Part shown: positions 1 to 12,338 of the stretch, piece by piece
Position numbering within the stretch: position 1 is the first letter of the stretch
How the letters are laid out: every line of letters starts with the position of its first letter
IMG/VR virus record: IMGVR_UViG_2721755721_000001
Strand: one strand, 5' to 3'
Length of the DNA stretch: 64,000 nt
From: a virus
Lineage: Duplodnaviria; Heunggongvirae; Uroviricota; Caudoviricetes
Translations under genes and position numbers: made by a program
The notes under the pieces: model-generated
The model's database searches: none
What the model saw: the letters and a program-made list of their open reading frames with translations, nothing else
What the model was told of the DNA's origin: nothing

Positions 1-849
1 TTAGTCTAAATGTTGAATGTCTTTTAAGAAATCCATGGCGCGGATTCTTGATTGACCATTTATCAGGAAAATATAAGATGATAGTTCTCTTTCTGCAGTG
101 TCATTTTTCATTATTTCGTTTTCATTTTTGCGTAACTTAGTTGACTCTATAGTTTTTATCAGACTATTAATTTTTTCATCAAAACCGATAGGTTTTTTTG
201 TTAATGAAATCTTATTTTTTTCAATAGCGCGACGGATCTTTGCTAGAATTTTGTTGCGGATATTTTCAGGGACATTTTCTGAACTTGAGATAAAGTTATG
301 ATTGCCATTTTTTAATGCTTCATTAATTGCATCATAAGGAGATATATATAAATTACTAGGAGTATTATAGGCTGTTTTGGCGTCACCCAGTGTATTGTTC
401 ACAAAATCTGTGCTCTTAGAAATATAAACTACTCCAACTAGCCCCGAAAAATTCTCCCAGAAAACAGATTCAAGATTCTTGTTGTTTGCATTGACCGCTC
501 TTTTGGCAATGGTCTTTTGTTTATTTAGTTCATTTAAAGTTTTTCTTAGTTCAGAATTTATTGAATTTAATTTTTCTTCTGATTCTTTGTATTGTAAATC
601 AAGTTTGGCAATGCTTCCCTCCAATTCTTTTCGTAAGATTTTATTATTCTCTATAAATTTTTGGGAGTTTTCCATTGCAGTTTTTAATTTATTTAATTCA
701 ACTTCTTTTTTTGCAATTTCTTCTGATAAAAGTTCCTTTTGGTAAATTGGTCTTACTGTATAAAAATATCCAAAAATAGCAAATGCCACCAATACAAACT
801 GTGATACATGGCTAACTCGGCTCAAAAAAACATCAACTTTATTTGACAT
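1..849 (-). CDS. hypothetical protein, 282 aa; N-terminal transmembrane helix, long coiled-coil, C-terminal globular region; AT-rich cargo
   Basis: complete ORF (ATG at 847-849, TAA at 1-3); hydrophobic segment VSQFVLVAFAIFGYFYTV; Lys/Glu/Asn-rich heptad-like stretch; no family recognised. Confidence 0.6.
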   Translation of the reverse strand: MSNKVDVFLSRVSHVSQFVLVAFAIFGYFYTVRPIYQKELLSEEIAKKEVELNKLKTAMENSQKFIENNKILRKELEGSIAKLDLQYKESEEKLNSINSELRKTLNELNKQKTIAKRAVNANNKNLESVFWENFSGLVGVVYISKSTDFVNNTLGDAKTAYNTPSNLYISPYDAINEALKNGNHNFISSSENVPENIRNKILAKIRRAIEKNKISLTKKPIGFDEKINSLIKTIESTKLRKNENEIMKNDTAERELSSYIFLINGQSRIRAMDFLKDIQHLD

Positions 850-1210
850 AACGCCTCTATAAGATTCTCTTTTTATCTACAACATTATAATTTTTTAATG
901 AAAAAAATCATCTAAAAATTAGTTCAAAGCAATACGTTCAAACTGATATTGATGCTTAGGAGCTAATCGGTACGTATTGATGGTACAACAGAAAAGAACA
1001 ATAGAAAGCTTGGGGGCTGACGTTGCTACTGGCGCACATACCCATGTCGTACTAAAAGAGTTCATTTGATTTTATAACTATATCAGCCCGTTATTTTTAT
1101 GTTGATGCGAACAGCCCCGCACGCCTGCCCGCTTCGCTTAACAGACTGGTTTTCATGCACCTCATAAATCGTCTCAGAAGCCACCACACAAGGGCTTTCT
1201 CGTCAAAAAT

Positions 1211-1262
1211 GGTGCATAAGGTTCATGCGTTTTCATGCGCTATAGACATGCACTCATGCGCT
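1211..1262. repeat. cluster of TCATGCG / CATGCAC direct repeats at about 10-bp spacing
   Basis: TCATGCG at 1223, 1233, 1254 and CATGCAC at 1247, between ogr-like gene and the 282-aa gene. Confidence 0.35.
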
Positions 1263-1285
1263 CTCAGGCCAGCCAGGGAAAAGGT

Positions 1286-1311
1286 GTTAAAAATCCCGGT
1301 ACTCGACCGGG
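1286..1311 (-). terminator. putative intrinsic terminator after ogr-like gene
   Basis: hairpin CCCGGTCGAGTACCGGG then ATTTTTAA on minus strand, 23 nt past the ogr stop. Confidence 0.45.
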
Positions 1312-1333
1312 ATTACGTGGGCGTTTTTTCTAA

Positions 1334-1615
1334 TCAGACAGGAATCTGCTGACGGCTTGACAGTTTTGACGCGGAGCCATAGCGATTGAGCGTTTGCTGT
1401 TGTTTTACCGGGGGGTGTGATTTGTCTGGTTCCTGTTCATTGCGCCGGGGTTTCATGATTATCTTATCCACACTCTCCAGTGCCGTAAATGTGCAGGAAC
1501 ATTCCAGATTCTGGCACTGATACCACGAGCGTTTAACTGACGGAGCTTCATAGGCTGCTGTTCTGGCGTGTGCAACTGTACCGCATTCCGGACATTTAAG
1601 TGCCATTAAAATCAC
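1334..1615 (-). CDS. ogr: Ogr/Delta-family zinc-finger late transcription activator
   Basis: motifs CPECG...HART...YQCQNLECSCTF...ESV...KP match P2 Ogr / P4 Delta as recalled; true start may be internal Met at 1606. Confidence 0.8.
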   Translation of the reverse strand: MILMALKCPECGTVAHARTAAYEAPSVKRSWYQCQNLECSCTFTALESVDKIIMKPRRNEQEPDKSHPPVKQQQTLNRYGSASKLSSRQQIPV

Positions 1616-2163
1616 TCCTGTATATCGTTAATGTCATTCAGGCGTTGCTGAAAATGCAGATGTTGTGCCGGGGTGTAAGAGTCCTGGCAATCACGAATCA
1701 TCCCGGGGTCAGGTATCAAACCGGATTCATCCAGGATCTCACGATAATCCCCGGCAATTTCAGGCGGTGTTATTGCCAGCTGGCGAACCAGAGCACTGCG
1801 TAATATACGGGACGCAACGTCAACCCCTCCGCGCCCCTTCAGGAACGGAGCCAGTGCAGATGTCAGGGCTGCCCCATTCGCCTGCATAAAATTGCTGAGA
1901 GCGGCTTCTGTGCAGGCCTCCATCAGTAAATGCTGCGCGTAAATGCATTCGCGCGCAGCACAGTTAATTTGCCATTTCAGCACATCCAGACGTTCCCGCA
2001 GTAATTCGAGCTGTCGGGCATAATCTGCTGGTTTTTCTGTGGCAGCGAGGAGAGATGTTATCTGTTGTTCAACGGCTTTTCGGCTCTCACTATGTCCGGC
2101 CCACAGAATACGGGCATTCCGAAAACTGGTAAGTGCCTGGTCAGGCGTGCCTCGGGCCGTCAT
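1612..2163 (-). CDS. hypothetical helical protein, 183 aa (Psu-like by size/position only)
   Basis: ORF translationally coupled between upstream 247-aa ORF and ogr; no motif recognised. Confidence 0.45.
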   Translation of the reverse strand: MTARGTPDQALTSFRNARILWAGHSESRKAVEQQITSLLAATEKPADYARQLELLRERLDVLKWQINCAARECIYAQHLLMEACTEAALSNFMQANGAALTSALAPFLKGRGGVDVASRILRSALVRQLAITPPEIAGDYREILDESGLIPDPGMIRDCQDSYTPAQHLHFQQRLNDINDIQE

Positions 2164-2903
2164 ACTGCTTTCTCCTTCTCAGCGAGTTCCTGACGAACCT
2201 TAATTTTATGCATAGCTGCCGGAGAGAGTTGATTACTGAAATCCAGACGCGCCGCATAATCCGGGGCAACTCCCGCCAGTTTAAACACCGGGTCCTGCTC
2301 AGGCATCGCATCGTTAGCCAGAGCCGGTCTGGTGATATGTTTATGAATAAAGTCTTTCAGCACTGTGTCCGGGTCATTAACTGAATTCACCACACCCACA
2401 ACGGCACTGGCTTCCCGGCCCATTGTGGATTTAAGCAGGCTCAGCGTCTGAATAAGCGCTTTTCCATGCGACTGCATAAAATCCTCCCAGATTTGTTTTG
2501 CGCGAATATCCACAAGAATGTTATGCGCGTGGATATACTTTCCGGCTAATTCTGCAGCTTTCTGCGGCAAAAGTGCATTTTCGCTTTCCTGAGCCGCCAG
2601 CAGCTCATCAAAATCCTCAAGCGTTTCTCGTCCCAGCGCAATTTCCGTGCGCAGTTTTTTCATTTCCTTTGAGACCACGCCCTGACTTTCACGAAACAGC
2701 GTGCGCCACTCCTCATTCAGTGTGTTCGTCGTGGCTTCCATTTCAGCGCGACGCTGGCGGATTGTCGCAATATTATCCGCTGCCGCTTTCTGCTGACGAC
2801 GTGCTTCAAGCCATGCGTTTCTGGCTGTGTTCATGGTTTCCAGTGCCCGCTGCGTTACAGCCGGAAAAGTGGAAAGGTTGTTATTTACTGCGGTATTGTT
2901 CAT
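2160..2903 (-). CDS. hypothetical coiled-coil protein, 247 aa (Sid-like by size/position only)
   Basis: ORF downstream of iteron/promoter region and primase; predicted helical/coiled-coil; no motif recognised. Confidence 0.45.
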   Translation of the reverse strand: MNNTAVNNNLSTFPAVTQRALETMNTARNAWLEARRQQKAAADNIATIRQRRAEMEATTNTLNEEWRTLFRESQGVVSKEMKKLRTEIALGRETLEDFDELLAAQESENALLPQKAAELAGKYIHAHNILVDIRAKQIWEDFMQSHGKALIQTLSLLKSTMGREASAVVGVVNSVNDPDTVLKDFIHKHITRPALANDAMPEQDPVFKLAGVAPDYAARLDFSNQLSPAAMHKIKVRQELAEKEKAV

Positions 2904-2941
2904 GACTTCTCCTGTCGGGTTGGTTCGTTACGTCAATTGTG

Positions 2942-3269
2942 TCGTGGCTGACACAAGCACACTATCGGTGCTCAGTGTGTGGTGGCTGGCACAACGGGCG
3001 CTTGCGGTTATTCAGACGTGGCTATGAAAGCCAGCCAGATAAAAATGCCCTCTGTTTCAGTCTGCTTTATGTCCCTGATGCGGTGGAACAGGTGAAACAT
3101 GTGTTACAGCTTTGTTTTATAAGGCATTTATATACACTGCACCGGTGGAACATCGCGGGTAACAAGGTGAAACAGCGGATTGGCTGGCGTTACATCTGTT
3201 CCACCTCACTATTTCAGAAGGTGGAACAGGTTCAGCCCTGTAAAATACGGTTGTTCCACCTGTTTCACC
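2942..3269. repeat. iteron cluster resembling P4 ori/crr-type repeats
   Basis: GGTGGAACAGGTGAAACA at 3083-3100; GGTGGAACA at 3144 and 3220; GGTGAAACA at 3166; inverted copies TGTTCCACC at 3197 and 3252 and TGTTTCACC at 3261; GTGGCTGNCACAA at 2942 and 2981. Confidence 0.55.
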
Positions 3270-3303
3270 TGTTACCCTTAATAAATAAGACTCACGCAAA
3301 GCC

Positions 3304-5976
3304 TTAACCCGGCACCTCGCTGTTGAAGACATAGAGCCTGCGGGGATTCATCTCTGGCGGGCGAATGGTTGTCTGGAGTTTGCCATCAGTGGAGGGCAGC
3401 AGGTATCCACGATCTGCGCACAGACGCGCCACCTTGCGCGGGTCAAATCCCCTGCAGATTTCTTTCCAGCCGGACGGCATGACATAGAACGTAGTGACAG
3501 CTTCCGTGCCCTGCGCGGTACTGCCTTTCTCCACCCTTCGCCAGCCCACCATATTGCCGGGGCGGTTGCGCTCGTCATACCAGTCTGCAAAGCGGCTGTA
3601 CTGATTCGCGGTAAAGAAACTGCGAACCTGCTCCAGTGCGGCGATATCTTCCTGATTGGCGGTGTGCCCGCGATCTTTCAGCCATGCGTTCAGGCAGACG
3701 CGGGTTGCCCGCAGTGCTTCACCCTCAGGCCAGCCGGTGATACCCAGACGGGTTGCCAGTTCACCTGCCATCGCCACCAGTGCAAAGCGGTTCACAGCCC
3801 GGCCCACCTGATTGCCTGCATCTTTCGGAGTCAGGGCGGCAGCATATTCCTTCATCAGCGATTTTGCCTGTGCCGTTAGTCCGTTAAGATCAGCGGTCAG
3901 TGCTTTCAGCCACTCCCGGAACGGCGAACCGTAGTAGCAGGACGTGGCCCATTCAAGATGCTCTGCCAGAGCCTTGCCGCTGTCGAAGCCGTGCAGCTCC
4001 TCAAAAACGCCAAACTTCCCGGAATCGCTGGGGATCTGGATCATCCTGACTTCCATCCCGGCAAAAGTACGCTCACCGGCCTTTGCCGCATGTTCGGTCA
4101 GAGACAATTCGCCAGTTGAAAAGAACAACAGGCGCCACTGCTTACGGGTACGCAGCTCACCGTCCGTACCGGCACGGCCCTTGCCCTGACCGTTTGCCAG
4201 CATGTAGGCGATATTGCCTGCCTCGCGTCCGTCAACTTCCCGGATCTCATCAAGCATCATGGCGGCATCGTTGCGGCGGCTGGCGCATCCCTCCAGTGCG
4301 TTGCCGGTGGCCCGCCATGTCTGCCAGTAGTCAGGCCCGCCGCAGACGGAGGTTGCTGCTTTCATGGTGGTGGTCTTACCGTCTGTCGATTCCCCTTTGA
4401 GGTGGTAGCCGCCGCCGTCCATACCAACCAGCCGTAACAGTGGTGCAGCAAAGGCCAGGCTGACAGCAAATGCCACGCGGGAGTTGCCGGTACAGTAGCG
4501 GGATACATGCTCCCGCCATTCCTCTGTTGTGCCCGACACGCGGAAATCACGCCCCTGCACGGAAGTGGTCTGGAGAATGACACCCTCTGCACCTTCACCG
4601 CTGACCTCATCCTGCAGGACGTAAACCTGACCATGCCAGCCAGTACGACTGACGCAGGTCACGCGGCGTTCCGGTTTACACAGTGAGATATATTCCATCA
4701 GGCGTGCGCGTGCCTCACCGGTGGTGCTGATATAAGACAGCCCGTTAACCAGCAGTACCCGGCGCAGTTCCTCACCACTGCCGCTCAGCATTTCCATCGG
4801 CATCGCCCAGCGGCGACACTCACCCCACGTATCTTCCCATTCCAGCAGTCGTCCGAAGTTACCGCCATCGGCATCGCAGGTGATTGCCGTCACGCGCAGC
4901 GGGCTGCATATTTTGACGTTCTGGATCTCCGTCTCACCGTTGCGCTGTACCTGCTTTTCATACCAGAGATATTCCTGGGTAAGACGGAACCCGTGCGGCA
5001 GTTGCGTGCGGCTTTCCCCGCAGAGTACCAGACCGTTGCGAAAGGCTTCACGGGCACGGGTAATACCGTGCTCCCGATGAAAGTCATTCCAGTCAGCCTT
5101 AATCTCTTCTGGTGGCAGCGTCATCCAGCCGCCAACAGCTTTTGCCGCCCGTTCAGCAAAGGCTCTGCCGGGATTCTCACCCCCGTCCTGAAAATCGTTA
5201 TCACCGGCGATGATAATTTTTACCTCAGGCCAGCGTGCCCGCAGCGACTGCGCCACATTGGGCAGGTTGCCCGCAGATATGGCAGCCACTACGCATCCGG
5301 CAGTGAGCTGGCTTACCGTCAGCGCCGTAGCGTAACCTTCGGTAATCACCACCTGTATCGGTGGTTCAGACGGTAACGGGCTGAGCGACACAAACGCGCC
5401 TTTCATCGTGCTGCCGGGCAGTATGCTTTTTTCACCCGTCGGGGCGATAAGCTGTGCACCGGTCACGGCTCCGGTGTTGGTCGTGAGTGGTAACAGCAGG
5501 GAACCGGCAGGAAAATCCTTACCGCTGATATGCTGTACGCTTCCGGTCAGAGAGGCCGGGTATCCGGCGAACCCTTTTCCTGTCAGATAGGCGCTTTCTC
5601 CCGTGTGGCTCTCTTTCATCAGCGCCGCCACGGTAAGACCCATGTCGCGTTTAGGGGCTTTTTGTCTGGCAGGCTTAACAGGCAGTTCCTGCATATCCGG
5701 CACATTAAGCACCTGCGCCACCTCCTGCGCAGCCTTTCTGACGTTGTAACCGGTTACGAGCTTAACCAGATCCAGACCGTCACCATTGCCACACTGGCTG
5801 CAGATCCACGTCCCGCGCCCGTCAAGGTCATCAAGGCGAAAACGATCCTTGCCCCCACATTTCGGGCAGGGACCGTGCCTGCCGTTTTCAGGTACATCAA
5901 TACGCAGCATCTGCAGAATAACGGGCCATTTCCCCCGTGCGGCGGCTGAAACCTGCGTAACCGTCTGTATTGTCAT
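3304..5976 (-). CDS. DNA primase/helicase, P4 alpha-like
   Basis: 890 aa; N-terminal zinc motif CPKCGG...CSQCG; acidic primase-like cluster IIIAGDNDFQDGGENPG; P-loop GESTDGKTT in C-terminal half. Confidence 0.85.
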   Translation of the reverse strand: MTIQTVTQVSAAARGKWPVILQMLRIDVPENGRHGPCPKCGGKDRFRLDDLDGRGTWICSQCGNGDGLDLVKLVTGYNVRKAAQEVAQVLNVPDMQELPVKPARQKAPKRDMGLTVAALMKESHTGESAYLTGKGFAGYPASLTGSVQHISGKDFPAGSLLLPLTTNTGAVTGAQLIAPTGEKSILPGSTMKGAFVSLSPLPSEPPIQVVITEGYATALTVSQLTAGCVVAAISAGNLPNVAQSLRARWPEVKIIIAGDNDFQDGGENPGRAFAERAAKAVGGWMTLPPEEIKADWNDFHREHGITRAREAFRNGLVLCGESRTQLPHGFRLTQEYLWYEKQVQRNGETEIQNVKICSPLRVTAITCDADGGNFGRLLEWEDTWGECRRWAMPMEMLSGSGEELRRVLLVNGLSYISTTGEARARLMEYISLCKPERRVTCVSRTGWHGQVYVLQDEVSGEGAEGVILQTTSVQGRDFRVSGTTEEWREHVSRYCTGNSRVAFAVSLAFAAPLLRLVGMDGGGYHLKGESTDGKTTTMKAATSVCGGPDYWQTWRATGNALEGCASRRNDAAMMLDEIREVDGREAGNIAYMLANGQGKGRAGTDGELRTRKQWRLLFFSTGELSLTEHAAKAGERTFAGMEVRMIQIPSDSGKFGVFEELHGFDSGKALAEHLEWATSCYYGSPFREWLKALTADLNGLTAQAKSLMKEYAAALTPKDAGNQVGRAVNRFALVAMAGELATRLGITGWPEGEALRATRVCLNAWLKDRGHTANQEDIAALEQVRSFFTANQYSRFADWYDERNRPGNMVGWRRVEKGSTAQGTEAVTTFYVMPSGWKEICRGFDPRKVARLCADRGYLLPSTDGKLQTTIRPPEMNPRRLYVFNSEVPG

Positions 5977-6356
5977 ACTTCCCCCTCATACAACGTCACA
6001 CCGGTACTGCAGAAGTCATCAAATGCCGCCGGAAGCGTGCGGTACATCTCCGCCATCACTTCACAGCCGCGCGCGGTCAGTACCGGCGGCGCGGTCAGCA
6101 GTGACGGCTCCAGCATGTCAGTCAGCAGTGCCAGCGCGGCAGCGGCGCCCTGCACTTCGCCGTACTCGTTAATCAGTACGCACTCGATATGCAGCGCAAT
6201 GGCCATTTCAATACGCTCCACCGTCAGGCTGTGCGGACCATACTGATCACTGCCAGTTTCGTTCAGCATTTTCTGCCGCCATGCTGAAGCAATAGCCCGC
6301 CGGTAAAGCGCGGTGGTCATTTCTACCGGGAAAATGGAAACCTGCGGCTGGTTCAT
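5973..6356 (-). CDS. hypothetical protein, 127 aa
   Basis: ORF overlapping primase start by 4 nt in satellite early operon. Confidence 0.45.
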   Translation of the reverse strand: MNQPQVSIFPVEMTTALYRRAIASAWRQKMLNETGSDQYGPHSLTVERIEMAIALHIECVLINEYGEVQGAAAALALLTDMLEPSLLTAPPVLTARGCEVMAEMYRTLPAAFDDFCSTGVTLYEGEV

Positions 6357-6637
6357 CTGGCACCTCCTTCAATCAGTGCGCAGCTGTGTGCAATATCCGT
6401 CAAATCTGCCAGCAGGTACTCCATCAGCGCGGCGACACCAGGCGCACAGCCTGCGTCCAGTGCTCCGGCCTGAGACGGGTATTCAGAAAAGAGAAGCTGG
6501 AGCATGTCGCAGGCATTTCTTGCGCGGGTCAGCTTTCCGAAACTGTCCTCTGACAACCCATAGGCAAAAGCACCGGTATTGTGTTTTTCAGGCAAAGTGT
6601 GGCCCTGAGCACCGTTGTGCCCGTTTGAAATATTCAT
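6353..6637 (-). CDS. hypothetical protein, 94 aa
   Basis: ORF translationally coupled within the same operon. Confidence 0.4.
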   Translation of the reverse strand: MNISNGHNGAQGHTLPEKHNTGAFAYGLSEDSFGKLTRARNACDMLQLLFSEYPSQAGALDAGCAPGVAALMEYLLADLTDIAHSCALIEGGAR

Positions 6638-6668
6638 CGTGGATTACTCCGTTTTCAGCGGTATTTTG

Positions 6669-7058
6669 TCAGAGAAACTTTGAATAGTGACCGTCGTCAG
6701 GCTCAGCAGAACGCCGTATGCTACGCTCCCGCCAGCGGATAAATAGCACAGACGGATGCAGTGTCAGCGGGCCGGAACCACTACCGCCAGCAGGAGCTGG
6801 TGCAGGCTTCAAGAGCGGTACATCAAACAGGCGCGTATACCGCTGTTCAAACCATGCCAGAGGGCAGGAAGAAAGCTTGTTGTCGCTGTCATGACGTATC
6901 AGCACTTCACAGCTGAATTCAGGATTAACCAGCGCCACAGAGGGCGAGGCTTCTATTAATCGGATAATCGTGACCGTCCAGCCACGTTCATGCTGCCAGC
7001 GTTCGCCGGGGTGCGGATAATTACGCATGTTCACCTCCGCAGGGAATGCGCCCGGCAA
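6669..7058 (-). CDS. hypothetical protein, 129 aa (start uncertain)
   Basis: ORF in satellite early operon; alternative internal start MRNYPHP. Confidence 0.4.
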   Translation of the reverse strand: MPGAFPAEVNMRNYPHPGERWQHERGWTVTIIRLIEASPSVALVNPEFSCEVLIRHDSDNKLSSCPLAWFEQRYTRLFDVPLLKPAPAPAGGSGSGPLTLHPSVLFIRWRERSIRRSAEPDDGHYSKFL

Positions 7059-7251
7059 AGCTCAGTACATAGTCCGGGGCAAGTCTGCGCCGCGCTGATC
7101 GTTCGTTATCTGCGGTGATCCTTAACATCACAGGACGGGCATTGCGTTGACTGCGGTTGATCGCCGCAAATAACCAGGTACACTTCTGTTTAGCCATCTT
7201 CGTTACCTCATATAACGTGCTGGTCAGACGCCTCGGTGCTGCTGCAAACAC
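7021..7251 (-). CDS. hypothetical small basic protein (likely starts at MAKQKC, position 7197)
   Basis: ORF immediately downstream of the palindromic operator region. Confidence 0.35.
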   Translation of the reverse strand: MFAAAPRRLTSTLYEVTKMAKQKCTWLFAAINRSQRNARPVMLRITADNERSARRRLAPDYVLSFAGRIPCGGEHA

Positions 7252-7279
7252 TCCGGGGCGTTGCTATTTTGTTTTTCTG

Positions 7280-7300
7280 TGTGTAATGTGTCATTACACA
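7280..7300. promoter_or_regulatory. perfect 9-3-9 palindrome TGTGTAATG-TGT-CATTACACA, putative operator
   Basis: located 14 bp upstream of the plus-strand RHH-like ORF and upstream of the minus-strand primase operon; ATTACA...TGTAAT half-sites recur at 7308-7326. Confidence 0.5.
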
Positions 7301-7313
7301 TAAATACATTACA

Positions 7314-7508
7314 ATGGGTGTAATTGACGTGTCAACACACAAAAATGAAAGACGTGGGAATCCGCCATTCCAGTTCCGACTTGACCCTGAACTGCGTGAA
7401 CTGATGGAACAAGCACAACAGCAGGATGGCGATGAATCGCTAGCGGCTTGGATCAAGCGCATTCTACGCAAAGAGTTACAAAGCCGAGGTTTAGAACCAA
7501 AGAATTGA
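7314..7508 (+). CDS. putative ribbon-helix-helix DNA-binding protein, 64 aa
   Basis: FQFRLDPELRELMEQA...SLAAWIKRILRKEL fits strand-helix-helix pattern; only plus-strand gene in the module; followed by hairpin GGGGAG-loop-CTCCCC at 7517-7540. Confidence 0.45.
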   Translation: MGVIDVSTHKNERRGNPPFQFRLDPELRELMEQAQQQDGDESLAAWIKRILRKELQSRGLEPKN

Positions 7509-7557
7509 TTAATACGTTGGGGAGGCTTTTTTCTCCCCAGCTTTGTTAATATTGTCA

Positions 7558-7773
7558 TTACACTACTTCCTCCAATCCTGCTGATTGAGCTTTAACCCAC
7601 TGCCTAATTTCTTGTGCATCGTAAACAGATACCCGTTTTGAAATGCGTATAGATTTGGGAAATTCAGGATTGTTCTTTTCCCAGCGCCAGAGAGTAACCG
7701 TACTTATTTGCAAAAAGTCAGCAGTAGCTCGTGGGCGGGCATGTCCAGTGATAGGATAAGTTTTTAATGTCAT
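7558..7773 (-). CDS. alpA: AlpA-family helix-turn-helix regulator
   Basis: 71 aa with AlpA-like pattern (LQISTVTLWRWEKNNPEFP...VYDAQEIRQW). Confidence 0.7.
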   Translation of the reverse strand: MTLKTYPITGHARPRATADFLQISTVTLWRWEKNNPEFPKSIRISKRVSVYDAQEIRQWVKAQSAGLEEVV

Positions 7774-7875
7774 GAAATTACCTGCCGTATTATGTAATGA
7801 ACACGGCAGATACTATGGGGATATCAAAATGCTGTGAAGGTAGTGTAATCAACTCTACCTGTAGATTGTTTCAGT

Positions 7876-8757
7876 CTACCCCTTTTGTTTTAATCCCGCA
7901 TGATTAACCGCTAATCGTAATTTTCTTAAGATTTCTTGTTCATTAGTGATAAATATTGGAGGTAGCTCTCCTAAATGTTTAATTATGGCGTTAGTCCACT
8001 TTTCAGGACTTATCTCTTTTCTTTCACCACGACATTCGCTTGGGTATTTTGCTAATATATATATGGCTGCATTTAATAACCCCTCCCTATTTTTTGCATG
8101 ATGCTCAGCAGTGTTATTTAATCGCTTGGGGATTTTAGGTTCAGATGAAATTCTTTTCGTAAGTAAACTTGGCATAGGAATTCCAGTTTTTACTGATTTC
8201 CATATTAACTCTAAATCTCTTCGCATGATAAGAAGATCTTCAAATGGAATCTTAATTACCTTATTTCCTTCATATGAGGCCGTTGCCATCAAAACATTAT
8301 CTCGTATTTTTACCGGTTTAAGCCTGAATTCATAATCTGGATCTATAGCTAATCCATTTTTTATGTCACTTATCATATCATCGGCGTACCAAATACCACA
8401 GGCAAATCCTATAATTTGAAGCCCATTTTCAAAATGTTCAAAGGAATCATCTTTAAGGTCATACCATATTGTTGAAAATTCCATCTCTAGTGATTGATTA
8501 GTTAATACGGGATGAATTAAGTCAATTTCCATTTTCTGATTTTTATTGAGGAAATTAACATTAAATCTAACTGCAAGTCCATCCGCCTTGAATGCGATAT
8601 TAAAAGCGCCTATTTCGTATAGATGTAATAAATCATCAATCTCGCATTCTAATAGTCTTGAAGCGCGTTCAAATGAACAATATTCTAATGGTGGTATTTT
8701 TTTGTCAATCCATAGATTTCCTAAGAATATAGTTTCATTCTCTGTTGAATGCTGCAT
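7876..8757 (-). CDS. hypothetical protein, 293 aa; AT-rich cargo between int and alpA
   Basis: complete ORF starting 30 bp after the int stop; GC well below flanking genes; no family recognised. Confidence 0.6.
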   Translation of the reverse strand: MQHSTENETIFLGNLWIDKKIPPLEYCSFERASRLLECEIDDLLHLYEIGAFNIAFKADGLAVRFNVNFLNKNQKMEIDLIHPVLTNQSLEMEFSTIWYDLKDDSFEHFENGLQIIGFACGIWYADDMISDIKNGLAIDPDYEFRLKPVKIRDNVLMATASYEGNKVIKIPFEDLLIMRRDLELIWKSVKTGIPMPSLLTKRISSEPKIPKRLNNTAEHHAKNREGLLNAAIYILAKYPSECRGERKEISPEKWTNAIIKHLGELPPIFITNEQEILRKLRLAVNHAGLKQKG

Positions 8758-8787
8758 TATGACCTCTGTTTTAAATTATAAGAGTAT

Positions 8788-10122
8788 TTAATTGATAATG
8801 TTAATACCTGATAAGTCATAAGGAGCATGGAATTCGTCCTTATTTAGTTCCAGATAATTAGACCACCATTGCATCATTCTGCGGCGTTCCTGCATGTGCT
8901 GCGCAAGATGCACATATGCTGCCCGCACTTCGTTTCTTTCTTGGTGACTCATCTGCCGTTCAACTGCATCGCGTGACCAGAGTCCTGATTCGGTCAGTGC
9001 AGAGCAGGCCATCGCCCTGAACCCATGCAAGCAAACATCAGTTTGAGTGTCGTAACCCATCGTTCGCAGTGCTTTATTAACTGTGTTTTCGCTCATCGGT
9101 TTATATGGGTTGCTGTCACCGGGAAAAACCAGCAGATATTCACCACTGATTTTCCTTATATCCTCCAGTACCCCGATAGCCTGACTAGATAGCGGGACAT
9201 AATGAGCAGCCCCCATCTTTGCACCCCGATCTGAGAATTTAACCCCTGCGATCTCTTCACGTTGTCCTGGTATCGTCCATAGCCCATTTTCAATGTCGAT
9301 CTCCTCCCATCTGGCATGTCGTAGTTCGCTGGATCGCACAAAAGTGTGCAGGGAAAAGAGAACTGCTAGGCGAGTCAATGGTCTTCCCGTGTAACTTCTC
9401 GTTTTCGCTAACAGTTCAGGTAAACGTTCGAGAGGTAGTGCGGGGCGATGTCGTACTTTGGGGGCCGTAATTGCACCTTTTAGATCGTGGGCAGGGTTGT
9501 AATCGACAATTCCACGTTGCACGGCATAACGGAAGATGCTCGTCATAGTGGTTTTTACACGGCTCGTTGTGGCACCAATTCCTTTCTCAGTCATCTCAAC
9601 CAGCATCGGCATCAAGTCACGGGTTTTGAGCGTATCGATAGGCTTTGAACCGATGGCAGGAAAGAGGTGGTTTTCCATTTCTCGGAGAATTTTTTTACGG
9701 GTGATCTCTTTCCACTCAGGATGCCCCATCGTTCCACTATGCCACTCTCTGGCAACACTCTCGAACGTGGGGGAAATTGGGTCTTCCTTTTTGGGTTTCT
9801 TTGCTTCGCGAGGATCACGACCATCGGCTAGTAGTTGCCTGGCTTCATCACGCCGTTTCCGCGCTGTTGCAAGTGAGACATCTGGGTAGACCCCTAATGC
9901 CAATGTCACTTGTTTTCCATCAAAACGATAATTCATACGCCAGTATTTTCCACCAGTCTTTCGTACCAGTAGATACAAACTCCCTCCATCGGTAAGTTTG
10001 TAATCATTGGTCTTCGGCTTGGCGTTTTCTATCTGTTTGGGGGAAAGCACATTAATGGCCATATCTGTACTCATTTTGGTAAATTGATGGTATCTGCATA
10101 TCGAACTGGGGAATACCATCAC
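8788..10122 (-). CDS. int: tyrosine integrase, P4-type
   Basis: 444 aa; N-terminal arm-binding-like region (LTDGGSLYLLVRKTGGKYWRMNYRFDGK); C-terminal catalytic region with HGFRAMACSAL and late Tyr. Confidence 0.9.
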   Translation of the reverse strand: MMVFPSSICRYHQFTKMSTDMAINVLSPKQIENAKPKTNDYKLTDGGSLYLLVRKTGGKYWRMNYRFDGKQVTLALGVYPDVSLATARKRRDEARQLLADGRDPREAKKPKKEDPISPTFESVAREWHSGTMGHPEWKEITRKKILREMENHLFPAIGSKPIDTLKTRDLMPMLVEMTEKGIGATTSRVKTTMTSIFRYAVQRGIVDYNPAHDLKGAITAPKVRHRPALPLERLPELLAKTRSYTGRPLTRLAVLFSLHTFVRSSELRHARWEEIDIENGLWTIPGQREEIAGVKFSDRGAKMGAAHYVPLSSQAIGVLEDIRKISGEYLLVFPGDSNPYKPMSENTVNKALRTMGYDTQTDVCLHGFRAMACSALTESGLWSRDAVERQMSHQERNEVRAAYVHLAQHMQERRRMMQWWSNYLELNKDEFHAPYDLSGINIIN

Positions 10123-10334
10123 TTATACCATCACGAGGTTGTAATGTCATGAAATTAACTGAAATGAAAATCAGGCCGATTCGGTGATAACTTACTGTTT
10201 TTTTAAGTGGTTATGTAATGAAGTGAAATGTAGAGAAAGGTCTTTAAAGTGTCCCCTGCAGACATCTACTTGAGGCAGCAGGGGATTGATTGGAATGGTG
10301 TTTTTTAGGTGTGAGAAATATTTTACCCGCTATT

Positions 10335-10535
10335 TTACCCATTGGCGCGGCTTAAGAGCTTATTTTTGAATTCACAATGGTCACGATATAACCATCTTGC
10401 TCGACCGTGGATAACTTTGGCTTTTGGCAGGTCGCCGGACTTAATCCGGTCGTAGATGAAGGTTTTACCAAAGCCAGTATCGGCCATGATGAATTTCAAA
10501 TCAACCAGTGAATCAGGTTGTAGTTCGTGTTGCAT
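10335..10535 (-). CDS. AlpA/Xis-family excisionase-like HTH protein
   Basis: 66 aa, FIMADTGFGKTFIYDRIKSGDLPKAKVIHGRARWLYRD pattern; immediately upstream of int. Confidence 0.6.
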   Translation of the reverse strand: MQHELQPDSLVDLKFIMADTGFGKTFIYDRIKSGDLPKAKVIHGRARWLYRDHCEFKNKLLSRANG

Positions 10536-10577
10536 GAGTGCTATCTCCGAATAGGGAATCGAACCTGCAAATCAGGC

Positions 10578-10600
10578 AAGAAAAAACCGCCATCAGGCGG
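10578..10600 (-). terminator. intrinsic terminator between early-left genes and xis-like gene
   Basis: minus strand CCGCC-TGAT-GGCGG then TTTTTTCTT. Confidence 0.55.
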
Positions 10601-10666
10601 CTTGGTGTTCTTTCAGTTCTTCAATTCGAATATTGGTTACATTGTTTTCATATATGAATAAATAAA

Positions 10667-10879
10667 TTAGCTTTTTTCGTTGCCTTCGCGTTCTTTATTA
10701 ATTTTGACAAAATCGTTTTTACCACGCTCTCCAAATGCGTCTTTAGAGTCGTTGTATCCGCAATCGCAGCACACATAATCATCAGACCATCCACGCATTG
10801 TTTTTTCTTTTGCAATATTTCCAGAACCGCATTTTGGACAAGACATATCACTACCTCCAAAGCATGAGAGAGATGACAA
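10667..10879 (-). CDS. small zinc-ribbon protein
   Basis: CPKCGSG...CCDCGY four-Cys motif; start may be internal MSCPKCG. Confidence 0.5.
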   Translation of the reverse strand: MSSLSCFGGSDMSCPKCGSGNIAKEKTMRGWSDDYVCCDCGYNDSKDAFGERGKNDFVKINKEREGNEKS

Positions 10880-10942
10880 CGTAACATTGATTGGAGATTA
10901 ACAATAGATTGCTGATGTAAAAGATATGTATAAGCTTAGCTA

Positions 10943-11317
10943 TCAAAGGGGAGGCTCTGGTAGCGGCATCCAGTGTGACGGTTTCCACGACGCACCAGGA
11001 ATTATCCACCCATCATTAGCGTCAGGATGCCCCGGGATGTAAGTCGCCCATTTCATTCGCCAGTCACCTTTCCTGTCAAACTCCCTGGCAACAAGAACGG
11101 CTGTTTTGGTATCCGGCATTCGCTCACTACAGCTTATCCAACCATCAGGAGTTACCGGAGAGTTGCCGGGTTCTTTAATGTGCAAGCGAGGCTCACCATC
11201 TTTTGGCTCAGGCCACTGGCGCTCCATGTTGATCTTCAATTTATCTTCCATAGCAGCGGTAATTTCAGCATCGCTGATGCCAGCACGGCGCTGTGCATCC
11301 CACAACAGGAAATGCAT
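10943..11317 (-). CDS. DUF551-like phage protein
   Basis: Trp-rich C-terminal pattern as recalled for DUF551; in frame with the upstream ORF across a TAG. Confidence 0.5.
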   Translation of the reverse strand: MHFLLWDAQRRAGISDAEITAAMEDKLKINMERQWPEPKDGEPRLHIKEPGNSPVTPDGWISCSERMPDTKTAVLVAREFDRKGDWRMKWATYIPGHPDANDGWIIPGASWKPSHWMPLPEPPL

Positions 11318-11326
11318 ATCAGCCCA

Positions 11327-11572
11327 CTAGCTGAGATCGTCTGGTTCGGCTGCGGCTTCCAGAGCCTCTTTTGAGAGGTGTTTCAGTGGACCAATGGGGC
11401 CAACGCAGCCAAATGTGGAGTCAGACCATTTGGCATGCTCGTGGCGAATCAGTTCGCGTTCCAGTGATGCCAGTGCAATTCGTGCCAGTTCCATTTGTTC
11501 GCCACGAGTAAGCCCGTTTTCAAGCGGATTTTTAATGAACAATTCAATACGTTCTTTGGTAATAGTGGTCAT
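11327..11572 (-). CDS. hypothetical protein, 81 aa (possibly N-terminal part of a gene interrupted by an amber codon)
   Basis: ORF ends at TAG 11327-11329; same frame continues 9 nt later into the DUF551 ORF. Confidence 0.4.
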   Translation of the reverse strand: MTTITKERIELFIKNPLENGLTRGEQMELARIALASLERELIRHEHAKWSDSTFGCVGPIGPLKHLSKEALEAAAEPDDLS

Positions 11573-11582
11573 TTGTTAGTCC

Positions 11583-12338
11583 TTAAACTGCTAGTTGCAA
11601 TTGCATTTCAAAGCGGTCGCGTTGTTCACAATACGCAAGAGAACCAGGGCTATTGTGTGCCTCAATCCGTTCTACCATTAATGCTGCGCGTGTCTCTTTA
11701 CTTGCAGGTGCATAAGCCCCAGACCAGGCTTTATCAATACCGATGTTTCGAGCGACGTTCGTACTATCTGCGCTGGCTAAGGGTAATTTTGTGAATATCA
11801 GCGGATTTAACATGCGCAATCCATGTAGTTTCGTAACCGGCTGACCATGCCCATCAACAATGTGACGAATCAGGTCTTTCATTCTGGCTACCGCAAGAGT
11901 TGGGCGCTTTACGTCATAGTCGCCACAACTACCGATAGCCACTCGCGGAAACTCATTGCACAAATGAATAAATCGCGCGTCACTTTCATTCATGTGCCAC
12001 ACTGGAACGCCAGCTAGTTTTCCGTGAGGCCACTCATTCAGAAGCGCATCATTTTCCTCCTCTCCGCCATCAATAATATCCGGGATAATGGCAAAATCGA
12101 ATCCTGGGTGATTCTTCCAGCGAGCAACAAACTCGTAGTAATCGCTCCAGTCGATTTTGTTTTTGCCAGCTGCTTTCCAGGCGGTGAATGCACCGTTGTC
12201 CAGCGCGAACGACTGACAGTATTCAGCCGCGAGATTGATCTGGCCTGAATGCGCAAAACTGATAAACGCATGTCGCCCTTTCCATGCTCTCATTGCGCAC
12301 GTATCAGGAGTAATAGGCCCACCGTGGTAGTGAATCAT
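11583..12338 (-). CDS. conserved hypothetical early-left protein, about 251 aa
   Basis: ORF; likely start MIHYHGGPITP at 12338; family not recognised. Confidence 0.5.
   Translation of the reverse strand: MIHYHGGPITPDTCAMRAWKGRHAFISFAHSGQINLAAEYCQSFALDNGAFTAWKAAGKNKIDWSDYYEFVARWKNHPGFDFAIIPDIIDGGEEENDALLNEWPHGKLAGVPVWHMNESDARFIHLCNEFPRVAIGSCGDYDVKRPTLAVARMKDLIRHIVDGHGQPVTKLHGLRMLNPLIFTKLPLASADSTNVARNIGIDKAWSGAYAPASKETRAALMVERIEAHNSPGSLAYCEQRDRFEMQLQLAV

What the first reader, a model, noticed from the sequence alone, without database searches (positions are those of the whole stretch)
7198..7545. Putative RHH repressor with a perfect palindromic operator, divergent from the satellite replication operon
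The only plus-strand gene in the satellite encodes a 64-aa protein with a ribbon-helix-helix-like pattern. Fourteen bp upstream is a perfect 21-bp palindrome TGTGTAATG-TGT-CATTACACA, with related ATTACA/TGTAAT half-sites nearby, in the interval from which the minus-strand operon leading to the primase must be transcribed. This resembles a master repressor/operator switch, which is not the usually described control logic for P4-like or PICI elements (P4 uses the CI RNA; PICIs are described as AlpA-activated).
Basis: partly seen in the sequence, partly recalled or inferred. Interest (0 to 1): 0.5.

Follow-up and report, generated by a model that had tools for sequence, protein, structure and literature searches.

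The report
Satellite repressor switch with antisense RNA
A small DNA-binding protein gene, its repeated binding-site-like sequences, two head-on promoters and a previously undescribed antisense RNA form a conserved control cassette that probably keeps the replication genes of this E. coli phage satellite (and many others, including the model island EcCICFT073) switched off.

Summary
A 9-3-9 inverted repeat (7280-7300) lies upstream of a plus-strand gene for a ribbon-helix-helix (RHH) protein of the YlcI/YnfO (DUF3950) family. The gene most likely starts at GTG 7329 (59 aa), not ATG 7314.

The element is a P4-like satellite (sid, psu, delta, alpha-type primase, Icd-like) with no detectable P4-type CI RNA immunity. 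Comparison of 72 related loci shows a fixed cassette:
- A structured plus-strand RNA (~7191-7276) with its own -10 box buried in icd codons 5-7 and an intrinsic terminator. It is antisense to the icd ribosome-binding site.
- Two conserved face-to-face sigma-70 promoters. P_rhh has its -10 at 7284-7289. P_icd has its -35 TTGACA over the RHH start codon and its -10 at 7311-7306.
- Dyad or two-copy words between them that differ between RHH types, whose beta-strand is hypervariable.

The same cassette is in cfPICIs, including EcCICFT073, and I found no description of it in the papers searched.

The repressor/operator reading is plausible but unproven. In relatives only the inner palindrome is conserved, and its variation also fits a 5' hairpin in the icd mRNA. 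I rate it a new variant of a known kind, closest to the P22 immI logic.

The parts
7329..7508 (+). RHH protein gene (59 aa, GTG start; RefSeq annotates ATG 7314, 64 aa, WP_000538173.1 'YlcI/YnfO family protein')
   Evidence: Homologues are mostly 59 aa and start MST. Third-codon-position changes dominate in this frame. PHROG 228 Arc-like match E=9e-6. AlphaFold gives helices at residues 20-33 and 38-52. hhalign to YlcI gives 94% probability.
7316..7320 (+). Shine-Dalgarno-like GGGTG, 8 nt before GTG 7329
   Evidence: Read from the sequence. AGGTG, AGGAG or AAGGG sit at the same place in the other groups.
7280..7300 (.). 9-3-9 inverted repeat TGTGTAATG-TGT-CATTACACA. It is a candidate operator O1 and also forms the predicted 5' hairpin of the icd mRNA.
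7317..7340 (.). Second, degenerate copy of the unit (GGTGTAATTGACGTGTCAACACAC). It is a candidate operator O2 and overlaps the P_icd -35 box and the RHH ribosome-binding site and start codon.
   Evidence: Direct repeat D2 is 41 bp from the first copy. It is conserved across group 1. Other RHH types carry their own two-copy words.
7261..7289 (+). P_rhh: -35 TTGCTA (7261-7266), 17-nt spacer, -10 TAATGT (7284-7289); predicted transcription start about 7296
   Evidence: A TAnnnT hexamer lies 35-39 nt upstream of the start codon in 59 of 65 distinct regions, and at 41 nt in group 3. The TTG is invariant but is also part of the terminator stem.
7306..7335 (-). P_icd (counterpart of P4 P_LE): -35 TTGACA (7335-7330, over the RHH start codon), 18-nt spacer, -10 TAATGT (7311-7306); predicted transcription start about 7299
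   Evidence: TGTCAA is present at the RHH start in 65 of about 74 distinct regions. Of these, 61 of 65 have TAnnnT at a spacer of 16-18 nt on the minus strand, three others have CATAAT and one has TGTGAT, with about 15 different hexamers in all.
7157..7184 (+). P_as, promoter of the antisense RNA: -35 TTGATC (7157-7162), 16-nt spacer, -10 TACACT (7179-7184), inside icd codons 5-7
   Evidence: T1, A2 and T6 of the hexamer are invariant in 46 diverse loci. icd codon 6 is NNT in 40/40 loci although it uses 9 different codons.
7191..7276 (+). Candidate cis-antisense small RNA of about 85 nt. It has an outer helix (7193-7196 with 7221-7224), hairpin HP1 (7201-7217, whose loop carries the complement of the icd Shine-Dalgarno sequence), hairpin HP2 (7227-7262) and a T-run (7261-7276).
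   Evidence: RNAalifold. In the named structure 94.3% of cells pair, 16 of 22 pairs show compensatory changes and 0 of 500 shuffles reach the observed values. Wobble cells are 149 G.U against 6 A.C, which places the structure on the plus strand. Covariance model R1 scores 58-106 bits in nearly all held-out loci that carry the cassette (L063, L018, L070 score only 21-31 bits). The window sequence folds to -25.3 kcal/mol.
7516..7541 (+). Intrinsic terminator of the RHH gene. It has no T-run on the minus strand, so alpA transcripts can probably read through.
   Evidence: sequence.
7021..7197 (-). Icd-like gene, first gene of the operon that leads to the primase (3304-5976)
   Evidence: NCBIfam phage_ICD_like E=5.5e-24. 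It is 54% identical to the P4 kil/icd region.
7558..7773 (-). alpA-type regulator/excisionase gene, upstream of the switch and co-oriented with icd
   Evidence: Pfam Phage_AlpA E=1.6e-7.

Best explanation
Window 7157-7541 is the immunity and maintenance switch of a P4-like satellite that has no P4-type CI RNA. It has three parts.

1. A 59-aa ribbon-helix-helix protein of the YlcI/YnfO-DUF3950 family is made from P_rhh.
2. P_rhh faces P_icd head-on. P_icd is the promoter of the icd...primase operon. The two predicted transcription starts are about 3 nt apart, so RNA polymerase can occupy only one promoter at a time. The RHH protein (inferred) binds as dimers to two related units: O1, the palindrome at 7280-7300, and O2 at 7317-7340. 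O1 covers the P_rhh -10 box and positions +1 to +20 of P_icd. O2 covers the P_icd -35 box and the RHH ribosome-binding site. Binding would shut off the replication operon and autoregulate the RHH gene.
3. A plus-strand RNA of about 85 nt is made from a promoter hidden in icd codons 5-7 and ends at an intrinsic terminator just before O1. It is fully complementary to the icd leader, Shine-Dalgarno sequence and start codon. It would (inferred) block icd translation and so silence the downstream genes. P1 C4 RNA, P4 CI RNA and P22 sar RNA do the same job by other means.

Induction probably comes from AlpA-driven transcription that reads through the RHH gene into icd.

What is shown in silico:
- the RHH gene and its fold class;
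- the conserved promoter boxes;
- the RNA structure and its strand;
- the presence of type-specific repeated words.

What is inferred:
- DNA binding by the RHH protein;
- repression of P_icd;
- expression and action of the antisense RNA;
- the induction route.
For: Fold and family:
- PHROG Arc-like match, AlphaFold topology and mostly RHH proteins among the best-ranked (weak) Foldseek hits.
- Sub-threshold Pfam matches of family members to Arc, RepB-RCR_reg and RHH_10.
- Homology to YlcI.

Specificity pattern:
- The C-terminal helix is nearly identical across the family.
- The N-terminal arm and beta-strand fall into at least 6 types: GNPPFQFRL, GNKQIALRV, SPQYQMRL, RLVVQLRL, SQKLQARA and SQALKARV.
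- Each type has its own dyad or two-copy word at the same place:
  - GGTAATTACCATGT x2
  - AGTGTCAGACACAT x2
  - ACTGGATTCCAGTA x2
  - AGGTGTGGCCCAC x2
  - CAAGTGT-CAT-ACACTTG
  - GAGTGC-GCACTC

Promoters:
- The minus-strand promoter TTGACA-16/18-TAnnnT is present in 61/65 regions.
- A plus-strand TAnnnT lies 35-41 nt before the start codon.

Antisense RNA.

No CI RNA: Rfam finds nothing in the window, and the P4 positive control works.

Same backbone as P4: int 52%, icd 54%, primase 38%, delta 43% and psu 29% identity.

Same cassette elsewhere:
- cfPICIs, including EcCICFT073;
- Pasteurella element Pmp8;
- diverse islands of Enterobacterales, Orbales, Pasteurellales and Aeromonadales.

Literature:
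- AlpA is an activator, and a global repressor of Gram-negative PICIs is 'unclear'.
- Among the papers I searched, none that describe this zone mention an RHH.
Against: - There are no expression or binding data.
- All Foldseek E-values are >=1.9. The Pfam scan of the protein itself is empty, and the NCBIfam score of 20.7 bits is below the cut-off of 30.
- Within group 1 much of the conservation is explained by the promoter boxes themselves, so an operator cannot be separated from a promoter.
- The outer arms of the palindrome are not symmetric in most relatives. The mismatches are A.C, which is G.U on the minus-strand RNA (28 versus 0), and this points to an RNA hairpin.
- Groups 1 and 2 share the core TGTCAT(T)ACA although their beta-strands differ.
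- Several representatives show no perfect dyad of 5 bp or more.
- For the window's own 83-nt region, a repeated 9-mer on either strand arises in 17% of shuffles.
- The P_rhh -35 TTG also belongs to the terminator stem.
- MST with ATGTCAAC is also present in K-12 ylcI, which has no matching -10 box.
Confidence: 0.58

Rival explanations
1. The palindrome works mainly as RNA. It forms a hairpin at the very 5' end of the icd-operon mRNA that stabilises the transcript or modulates pairing with the antisense RNA. The RHH protein binds other words, for example the GTGTAAT unit at 7318-7324, or binds the palindrome only incidentally. This can be true together with the best explanation.
For: The predicted P_icd transcription start (about 7299) lies at the outer edge of the right arm. 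The minus-strand RNA 7299-7198 folds with an 8-bp terminal hairpin, -26.4 kcal/mol, z = -2.7. In 28 distinct relatives the non-complementary cells are 28 A.C against 0 G.T. Pair 9 forms in 24/28 as minus-strand RNA but in only 9/28 as a DNA dyad. Dyads of other groups sit at the same +1 to +20 position with unrelated sequences.
Against: No pair of the palindrome shows a double compensatory change. Pairs 5 and 8 remain unpaired in 7-10 of 28 sequences. A hairpin does not explain the second copies of the same word 23 to 68 bp away (start to start) in several types, nor the hypervariable beta-strand.
Confidence: 0.35
2. The RHH protein is chiefly an autoregulator or copy-number regulator of the plasmid or replicative state, like CopG with RNAII in pMV158 or CopB with CopA in R1, rather than the lysogeny-type master repressor of the satellite.
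For: The pairing of an RHH protein with an antisense RNA upstream of replication genes is the classical plasmid copy-control layout (established knowledge). One family member hits Pfam RepB-RCR_reg at E=0.0016. The dyad overlaps the RHH gene's own -10 box.
Against: The cassette is found in integrated islands next to int and alpA in all loci examined. The controlled operon begins with Icd-like and other early genes, not with the primase alone.
Confidence: 0.15
3. The palindrome is the site of another protein (AlpA/Vis, helper Cox or Ogr/Delta, or a host factor), and the RHH protein has a different target.
For: Extra GTGTAAT copies flank alpA (7557-7563 and 7843-7849). P4 Vis is known to bind the P_LE/P_LL region (own knowledge).
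Against: The spacings available between the TGT and ACA triplets are 11, 13 or 15 nt, never the 12 nt of the Ogr/Delta site (read). The alpA-flanking copies are not conserved in relatives. Dyad words change with RHH type even where other genes differ independently.
Confidence: 0.08
4. The overlapping minus-strand ORF 7208-7558 (116 aa) is the real gene and the plus ORF is spurious.
For: It is a longer ORF in this window.
Against: It is interrupted by stop codons in 13/43 relatives and has no family match. Substitutions follow the plus frame at 524/230/1291. PGAP annotates the plus gene.
Confidence: 0.02

Closest known systems
Phage P22 immunity I region (Mnt and Arc RHH repressors, overlapping Pant/Pmnt promoters, sar antisense RNA)
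   Same: Both have a small RHH repressor gene transcribed opposite to the controlled operon and a dyad operator on overlapping promoters. Both also have a short antisense RNA that is made from inside the controlled operon and covers a ribosome-binding site (P22 facts: PMC2629481, and own knowledge).
   Different: There is one RHH gene here, not two. The controlled first gene is Icd-like, followed by replication genes, not the antirepressor Ant. The antisense RNA has a different structure and no Rfam family. The host element is a satellite, not a phage. Sequence similarity to Arc is only at profile level.
P4 CI RNA / P1-P7 C4 RNA immunity (Rfam C4, c4-a1b1, isrK)
   Same: The cassette sits at the same genomic slot, between alpA/vis and the icd-like gene of a P4-type backbone. 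The likely target is also the same: icd translation and downstream polarity.
   Different: No C4, isrK or a1b1 element is present. The RNA here is a cis-encoded antisense transcript from the opposite strand, not a processed sense-strand RNA, and a protein regulator is added.
pMV158 CopG (RHH) plus RNAII, and R1 CopB plus CopA copy control
   Same: An RHH-type repressor and a countertranscript RNA act together on a replication operon (own knowledge).
   Different: In those plasmids the repressor gene is co-transcribed with rep. Here it is divergent, and the element is an integrated satellite.
P2 / 186 lysis-lysogeny switch (face-to-face Pe/Pc or pR/pL promoters)
   Same: Convergent, mutually interfering promoters carry repressor sites around the lytic -10 box. 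These are the helper-type phages of P4-like satellites (own knowledge).
   Different: The repressors there are HTH proteins (C, CI) and there is no antisense small RNA. Promoter spacing is 35-62 bp there, against about 3 nt here.
E. coli K-12 YlcI / YnfO (DUF3950)
   Same: Homologous protein: hhalign probability 94.3%, with the same MST...RR N-terminus.
   Different: YlcI sits in the late region of the lambdoid prophage DLP12, has no R1-type RNA upstream and has no assigned function.

Membership tests
Ribbon-helix-helix (Arc/MetJ/CopG) superfamily | Beta-strand, helix A, turn and helix B topology in about 45 residues | tested here: met
   The AlphaFold monomer has an extended N-terminus (residues 1-19) and helices at 20-33 and 38-52, with pLDDT about 90 over the helices. 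The strand can form only in the dimer.
Ribbon-helix-helix (Arc/MetJ/CopG) superfamily | Significant similarity to known RHH profiles or structures | tested here: inconclusive
   PHROG 228 'Arc-like repressor' matches at E=9e-6. Single family members hit Pfam Arc at 0.002 and RepB-RCR_reg at 0.0016, both below cut-off. The best-ranked Foldseek hits are mostly RHH proteins but have E>=1.9. PDB sequence and profile searches are empty.
Ribbon-helix-helix (Arc/MetJ/CopG) superfamily | Alternating hydrophobic and polar beta-strand ending in a basic residue, and a G-x-S/T/N turn between the helices | tested here: met
   The strand reads P-F-Q-F-R-L, with R17 invariant in all types. The turn is D-G-D-E-S, one residue longer than the canonical motif; types T4 and T5 have G-E-S.
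Ribbon-helix-helix (Arc/MetJ/CopG) superfamily | Dimerisation through an antiparallel sheet and sequence-specific DNA binding | not testable with these tools
   Needs a dimer model or an experiment.
YlcI/YnfO family (NCBIfam NF041551; Pfam DUF3950) | Score above the curated cut-off of the family model | tested here: not met
   NF041551 scores 20.7 bits against a cut-off of 30. Pfam DUF3950 does not match. Even so, PGAP names WP_000538173.1 'YlcI/YnfO family protein'.
YlcI/YnfO family (NCBIfam NF041551; Pfam DUF3950) | Homology to K-12 YlcI | tested here: met
   hhalign of A4 against YlcI: probability 94.3%, E=9.6e-8, 51 aligned columns.
P4-type CI RNA immunity | C4/CI RNA gene with seqA/seqC (a1b1, isrK-like) targets upstream of icd/kil | tested here: not met
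   The Rfam E-value scan of window 1-12000 finds nothing. The same scan finds C4 at 74.9 bits, isrK at 60.8 and c4-a1b1 at 44.1 in P4.
P4-like satellite (backbone) | int, psu, delta, sid, alpA and alpha-type primase co-located | tested here: met
   Annotation of the identical element, Pfam matches and tblastn against P4. Gene order differs from P4: here sid-psu-delta follow alpha on the same strand.
P22 immI-type switch | RHH repressor, operator on overlapping promoters, and an antisense RNA over the ribosome-binding site of the controlled gene | tested here: inconclusive
   All three parts are present by sequence analysis. None is shown to function.
P22 immI-type switch | The controlled gene is the antirepressor Ant | tested here: not met
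   The first gene is Icd-like. No Ant or Bro domain was found in the ORFs scanned.
Gram-positive PICI Stl/Rpr master repressor | A larger repressor transcribed with int and divergent from xis-rep (cI-type/HTH by own knowledge) | tested here: not met
   The protein is a 59-aa RHH and lies between alpA and icd, while int and alpA are on the opposite strand. Layout of the Gram-positive elements: PMC6092414; the cI-type/HTH nature of Stl/Rpr is own knowledge, not stated in the passages read.

The most novel reading that the evidence does not exclude
The RHH protein, the cis-antisense RNA and the face-to-face promoters together form the long-sought repression system of Gram-negative phage satellites. 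These include P4-like elements without CI RNA, cfPICIs and PICIs, among them the model island EcCICFT073. The hypervariable beta-strand and its matching operator words would define satellite immunity groups. AlpA-driven read-through, triggered by the helper phage, would be the way the lock is opened.
Probability: 0.4. Interest if true: 0.78.

Novelty: new variant of a known kind. Interest (0 to 1): 0.62.

Why it matters
- Open question. For Gram-negative PICIs, the 2018 paper that defined them (the papers I searched add nothing later on this point) states that only an activator (AlpA) is known and that a global repressor is 'unclear'. For P4 the only described immunity is the CI RNA.
- What is new. 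A conserved, type-diversified RHH and antisense-RNA cassette sits exactly between alpA and the replication operon. It gives a concrete, testable candidate for how these satellites stay silent. It could also explain how they exclude relatives, through immunity types, and how helper phages wake them.
- Model system. The cassette is present in EcCICFT073, where genetic tools already exist.
- Annotation. It adds an unannotated small-RNA family (no Rfam model) to enterobacterial genomes. It also suggests a function for the DUF3950/YlcI protein family.

Tried and rejected
- Consensus promoter scan. It proposed back-to-back promoters: plus strand GTGTCA/TACAAT and minus strand ATGACA/CAAAAT. I set these aside because their -10 boxes are not conserved. 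TACAAT-type hexamers 13 nt before the start occur in only 11/65 regions, and the CAAAAT position varies. The face-to-face pair is conserved across all groups.
- Pfam scan of the 64-aa protein: no hit.
- PDB sequence search with the single protein and with a profile: nothing meaningful.
- Rfam scan of the window: nothing.
- R1 covariance model on P4 and on K-12 DLP12 (ylcI): no hit. The RNA therefore belongs to the satellite cassette, not to the protein family as a whole.
- Idea that the RHH protein also controls alpA through the GTGTAAT copies flanking it: these copies are not conserved in relatives, so this is kept only as a note.
- Ogr/Delta-type TGT-N12-ACA site in the palindrome: the spacing does not fit.
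- Literature searches found nothing relevant on RHH in P4-like satellites or PICIs, on YlcI/YnfO/DUF3950, on Icd-like proteins, or on an EcCICFT073 repressor.
- Breadth search. Only 38 clusters at 50% identity reach E<=1e-3 with the group-1 profile, so the family as seen by this narrow group-1 profile is narrow.
Full report
WHAT IS THERE

The window is E. coli DNA. Positions 1-10261 are 99.9% identical to a satellite integrated at tRNA-Arg (argW) in other complete genomes.

Apart from the RHH gene, the annotated genes of the element are all on the minus strand:
- int (8788-10122)
- a 293-aa ORF
- alpA (7558-7773)
- an Icd-like gene (7021-7197)
- three small ORFs
- a Toprim/DUF927 primase (3304-5976)
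- sid-like, psu and delta genes

tblastn against P4 confirms the shared backbone: int 52%, icd 54%, primase 38%, delta 43%, psu 29% and DUF5375 40% identity. It finds no counterpart of the plus-strand gene.

CHECKING THE OBSERVATION

The inverted repeat TGTGTAATG-TGT-CATTACACA lies at 7280-7300. A perfect repeat with 9-bp arms and a short spacer arises in 0.25% of shuffles of the 131-bp intergenic region. Five of the eleven GTGTAAT words of the 64-kb window lie within 7281-7849.

The plus ORF is a real gene:
- 102 homologues were found across Enterobacterales.
- Substitutions against 43 relatives fall 524/230/1291 on codon positions 1/2/3 of the plus frame.
- The overlapping 116-aa minus ORF has stop codons in 13 of 43 relatives and no family match.

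The start needs correcting:
- Most homologues are 59 aa and begin MSTHKNERRG.
- All groups align on (A/G)TG-TCA-AC.
- The frame upstream of it holds stop codons in several genera while the DNA stays conserved.

The gene is therefore 7329-7508 (GTG start), preceded by GGGTG at 7316-7320.

THE PROTEIN

- PHROG 228 'Arc-like repressor' matches at E=9e-6. NCBIfam YlcI_YnfO_N scores 20.7 bits, below its cut-off of 30.
- AlphaFold2 (pLDDT 78.8) gives an extended N-terminus and helices at 20-33 and 38-52.
- The best-ranked Foldseek PDB hits are mostly RHH proteins (NikR N-domain, Arc, ParD, ParB of pCXC100, MazE9), but with weak E-values, as expected for 59 residues.
- A profile of the wider family aligns to K-12 YlcI with 94% probability.

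I conclude it is an RHH protein of the YlcI/YnfO-DUF3950 family. No function is on record for that family.

Across 72 genome loci the C-terminal helix (DGDxSxxAWIKRIIRKELQSRGIEPKG) is almost constant. The N-terminal arm and beta-strand are the parts that read DNA in RHH proteins. They fall into discrete types: GNPPFQFRL (this window), GNKQIALRV, SPQYQMRL and RLVVQLRL. The more distant SQKLQARA and SQALKARV types add two more.

THE SURROUNDINGS: AN UNEXPECTED RNA

Between the icd start codon and the palindrome the DNA is conserved from E. coli to Gilliamella, Pasteurella and Oceanisphaera. It folds, on the plus strand, into:
- an outer helix, GCCA with UGGU;
- hairpin HP1 (7201-7217), whose loop carries the complement of the icd Shine-Dalgarno sequence;
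- a long hairpin HP2 (7227-7262) followed by TTGCTATTTTGTTTTT.

On 46 diverse sequences, 94.3% of cells pair, against 38-47% when the 3' partners are slid by 1-3 columns. Sixteen of 22 pairs show compensatory changes, and no shuffle out of 500 reaches the observed values.

The strand is settled by the wobble pairs. There are 149 G.U cells against 6 A.C cells, so 94% of cells pair on the plus strand and only 80% on the minus strand.

Upstream, a TAnnnT hexamer (window TACACT, 7179-7184) has T1, A2 and T6 invariant in all 46 sequences. It lies inside icd codons 5-7. Codon 6 encodes nine different codons and eight different amino acids, yet is NNT in 40 of 40 cases where NNC would be synonymous. 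This is nucleotide-level selection for a -10 box on the opposite strand.

A covariance model built from the alignment finds the element at 58-106 bits in nearly all held-out loci that carry the cassette (three, L063, L018 and L070, score only 21-31 bits). It is always just upstream of, and co-oriented with, an RHH gene. It finds nothing in P4 or next to K-12 ylcI.

Rfam has no family for it. The same scan finds C4, isrK and c4-a1b1 in P4.

I infer a cis-antisense RNA of about 85 nt (about 7191-7276) that covers the icd leader, ribosome-binding site and first two codons.

THE PROMOTERS

The consensus scan suggested back-to-back promoters, but conservation says otherwise.

- Minus strand. The RHH start region (A/G)TGTCAA reads TTGACA. 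Sixteen to 18 nt further on there is a TAnnnT hexamer in 61 of 65 distinct regions; three others have CATAAT and one has TGTGAT. About fifteen different hexamers are used across the groups. In the window this is -35 at 7335-7330, -10 TAATGT at 7311-7306 and a predicted start near 7299.
- Plus strand. A TAnnnT hexamer lies 35-41 nt before the start codon in nearly all groups. In the window this is TAATGT at 7284-7289, with TTGCTA 17 nt upstream and a predicted start near 7296.

The two promoters therefore face each other, with starts about 3 nt apart. The palindrome spans the P_rhh -10 box to +5 of P_rhh, and +1 to +20 of P_icd.

A second, degenerate copy of the unit lies at 7317-7340 (41-bp direct repeat D2). 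It covers the P_icd -35 box and the RHH ribosome-binding site.

IS THE PALINDROME AN OPERATOR?

For:
- The protein is an RHH.
- The site lies on both promoters.
- Every RHH type carries its own dyad or two-copy word at the same relative position:
  - GGTAATTACCATGT x2
  - AGTGTCAGACACAT x2
  - ACTGGATTCCAGTA x2
  - AGGTGTGGCCCAC x2 in EcCICFT073
  - CAAGTGT-CAT-ACACTTG
  - GAGTGC-GCACTC

Against:
- In 28 distinct group-1 relatives only GTAATGTGT and A..ACAC are invariant, and these include the -10 box.
- Outer arm pairs are often not complementary.
- All 28 single-side departures are A.C, which is G.U on the minus-strand RNA, and none is G.T.
- Together with the predicted start at about 7299 and the fold (8-bp terminal hairpin, z = -2.7), this suggests that the palindrome is also, or instead, a 5' hairpin of the icd mRNA.

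The two readings are compatible. I give 0.58 to the full repressor/operator plus antisense RNA model. I give 0.35 to a real RNA-hairpin role, which is not exclusive of the first.

DISTRIBUTION AND LITERATURE

- The group-1 DNA is present in about 200 of 5426 complete E. coli genomes at 80% coverage or more, and in 519 at least in part. This includes 33 places on plasmids.
- The cassette occurs with quite different primases and integrases. It is found in capsid-forming PICIs, in Pasteurella element Pmp8 and next to a BREX locus on a plasmid.
- It occurs in EcCICFT073, the model Gram-negative PICI. There a YlcI/YnfO gene is divergent from an Icd-like gene, R1 scores 67.9 bits and a 13-bp word is repeated twice.
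- The paper that defined these PICIs found that AlpA is an activator and wrote that a global repressor is unclear (PMC6092414).
- A later survey places Bro-N proteins and C4/isrK RNAs in this zone and does not mention an RHH (PMC10111431).
- The P4-like census does not treat immunity (PMC8628076).

I found no description of this cassette in the papers I could search.

COMPARISON WITH KNOWN SYSTEMS

The logic is closest to P22 immI, which has Mnt and Arc RHH repressors and the sar antisense RNA controlling ant (PMC2629481). It is also close to P1 and P4, where an RNA blocks icd. It resembles CopG/RNAII plasmid copy control and the face-to-face switch of P2 and 186.

It is not a member of the CI/C4 RNA system, because that defining feature was tested and not met. 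It fails the NCBIfam cut-off for YlcI/YnfO, although homology to YlcI is clear.

VERDICT

I rate it a new variant of a known kind of switch, of above-average interest because it addresses an open question in satellite biology and can be tested directly.

Noticed in passing
window 7157-7276 (+): A conserved structured RNA has its own -10 box inside icd codons 5-7 and an intrinsic terminator. It is antisense to the icd ribosome-binding site and has no Rfam family.
   Followed up: yes
window 10249-10261 and beyond: Identity to the argW-integrated satellite ends inside the tRNA-Arg 3' core (GTGTCCCCTGCAG). ARAGORN finds no intact tRNA in the window. Different DNA follows, with a small ORF at 10335-10535 that looks AlpA- or excisionase-like by eye. 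This suggests a second element integrated in tandem at the same att site.
   Followed up: partly
window 7557-7566 and 7840-7849: A perfect 10-bp inverted repeat, ATTACACTAC / GTAGTGTAAT, brackets the alpA gene and contains the GTGTAAT word of the palindrome. It is not conserved in relatives.
   Followed up: partly
L077 6241-7317; also L027, L036, L047, L054: Some islands carry two RNA-plus-RHH cassettes of different specificity types in tandem. In L077 the second cassette keeps the first codons of a truncated minus-strand gene.
   Followed up: partly
L080 (E. coli CFT073 NC_004431 1380242-1381052): EcCICFT073 has the same cassette: a YlcI/YnfO gene C_RS30120 divergent from the Icd-like gene C_RS30125, and the word AGGTGTGGCCCAC repeated 23 bp apart around a TATGCT box. 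Their high-numbered locus tags suggest that these small genes were added in a later re-annotation.
   Followed up: partly
L019, L021-L025 (Xenorhabdus): The first minus-strand gene keeps the conserved N-terminus MADTQHNQTRPKF but continues directly into a zinc-ribbon primase. This is an Icd-leader/primase fusion.
   Followed up: no
L076 (plasmid pCUVET19-1426.1, 58434-59154): The RNA-plus-RHH cassette sits next to a WYL-domain gene and a BREX system on a 124-kb plasmid, with no satellite genes nearby.
   Followed up: no
window 7314-7328: RefSeq starts the RHH gene at ATG 7314 (64 aa). Comparative data favour GTG 7329 (59 aa), so the annotated protein is probably five residues too long.
   Followed up: yes
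P0105 (representative library): A 2559-aa protein matches the RHH profile in 8 separate stretches (E=1.3e-21). Its origin is unexplained.
   Followed up: no
window 1334-5976: Gene order differs from P4. Here sid-psu-delta follow the primase on the same strand and int is next to alpA, so this is a distinct architectural subtype of P4-like satellite.
   Followed up: partly
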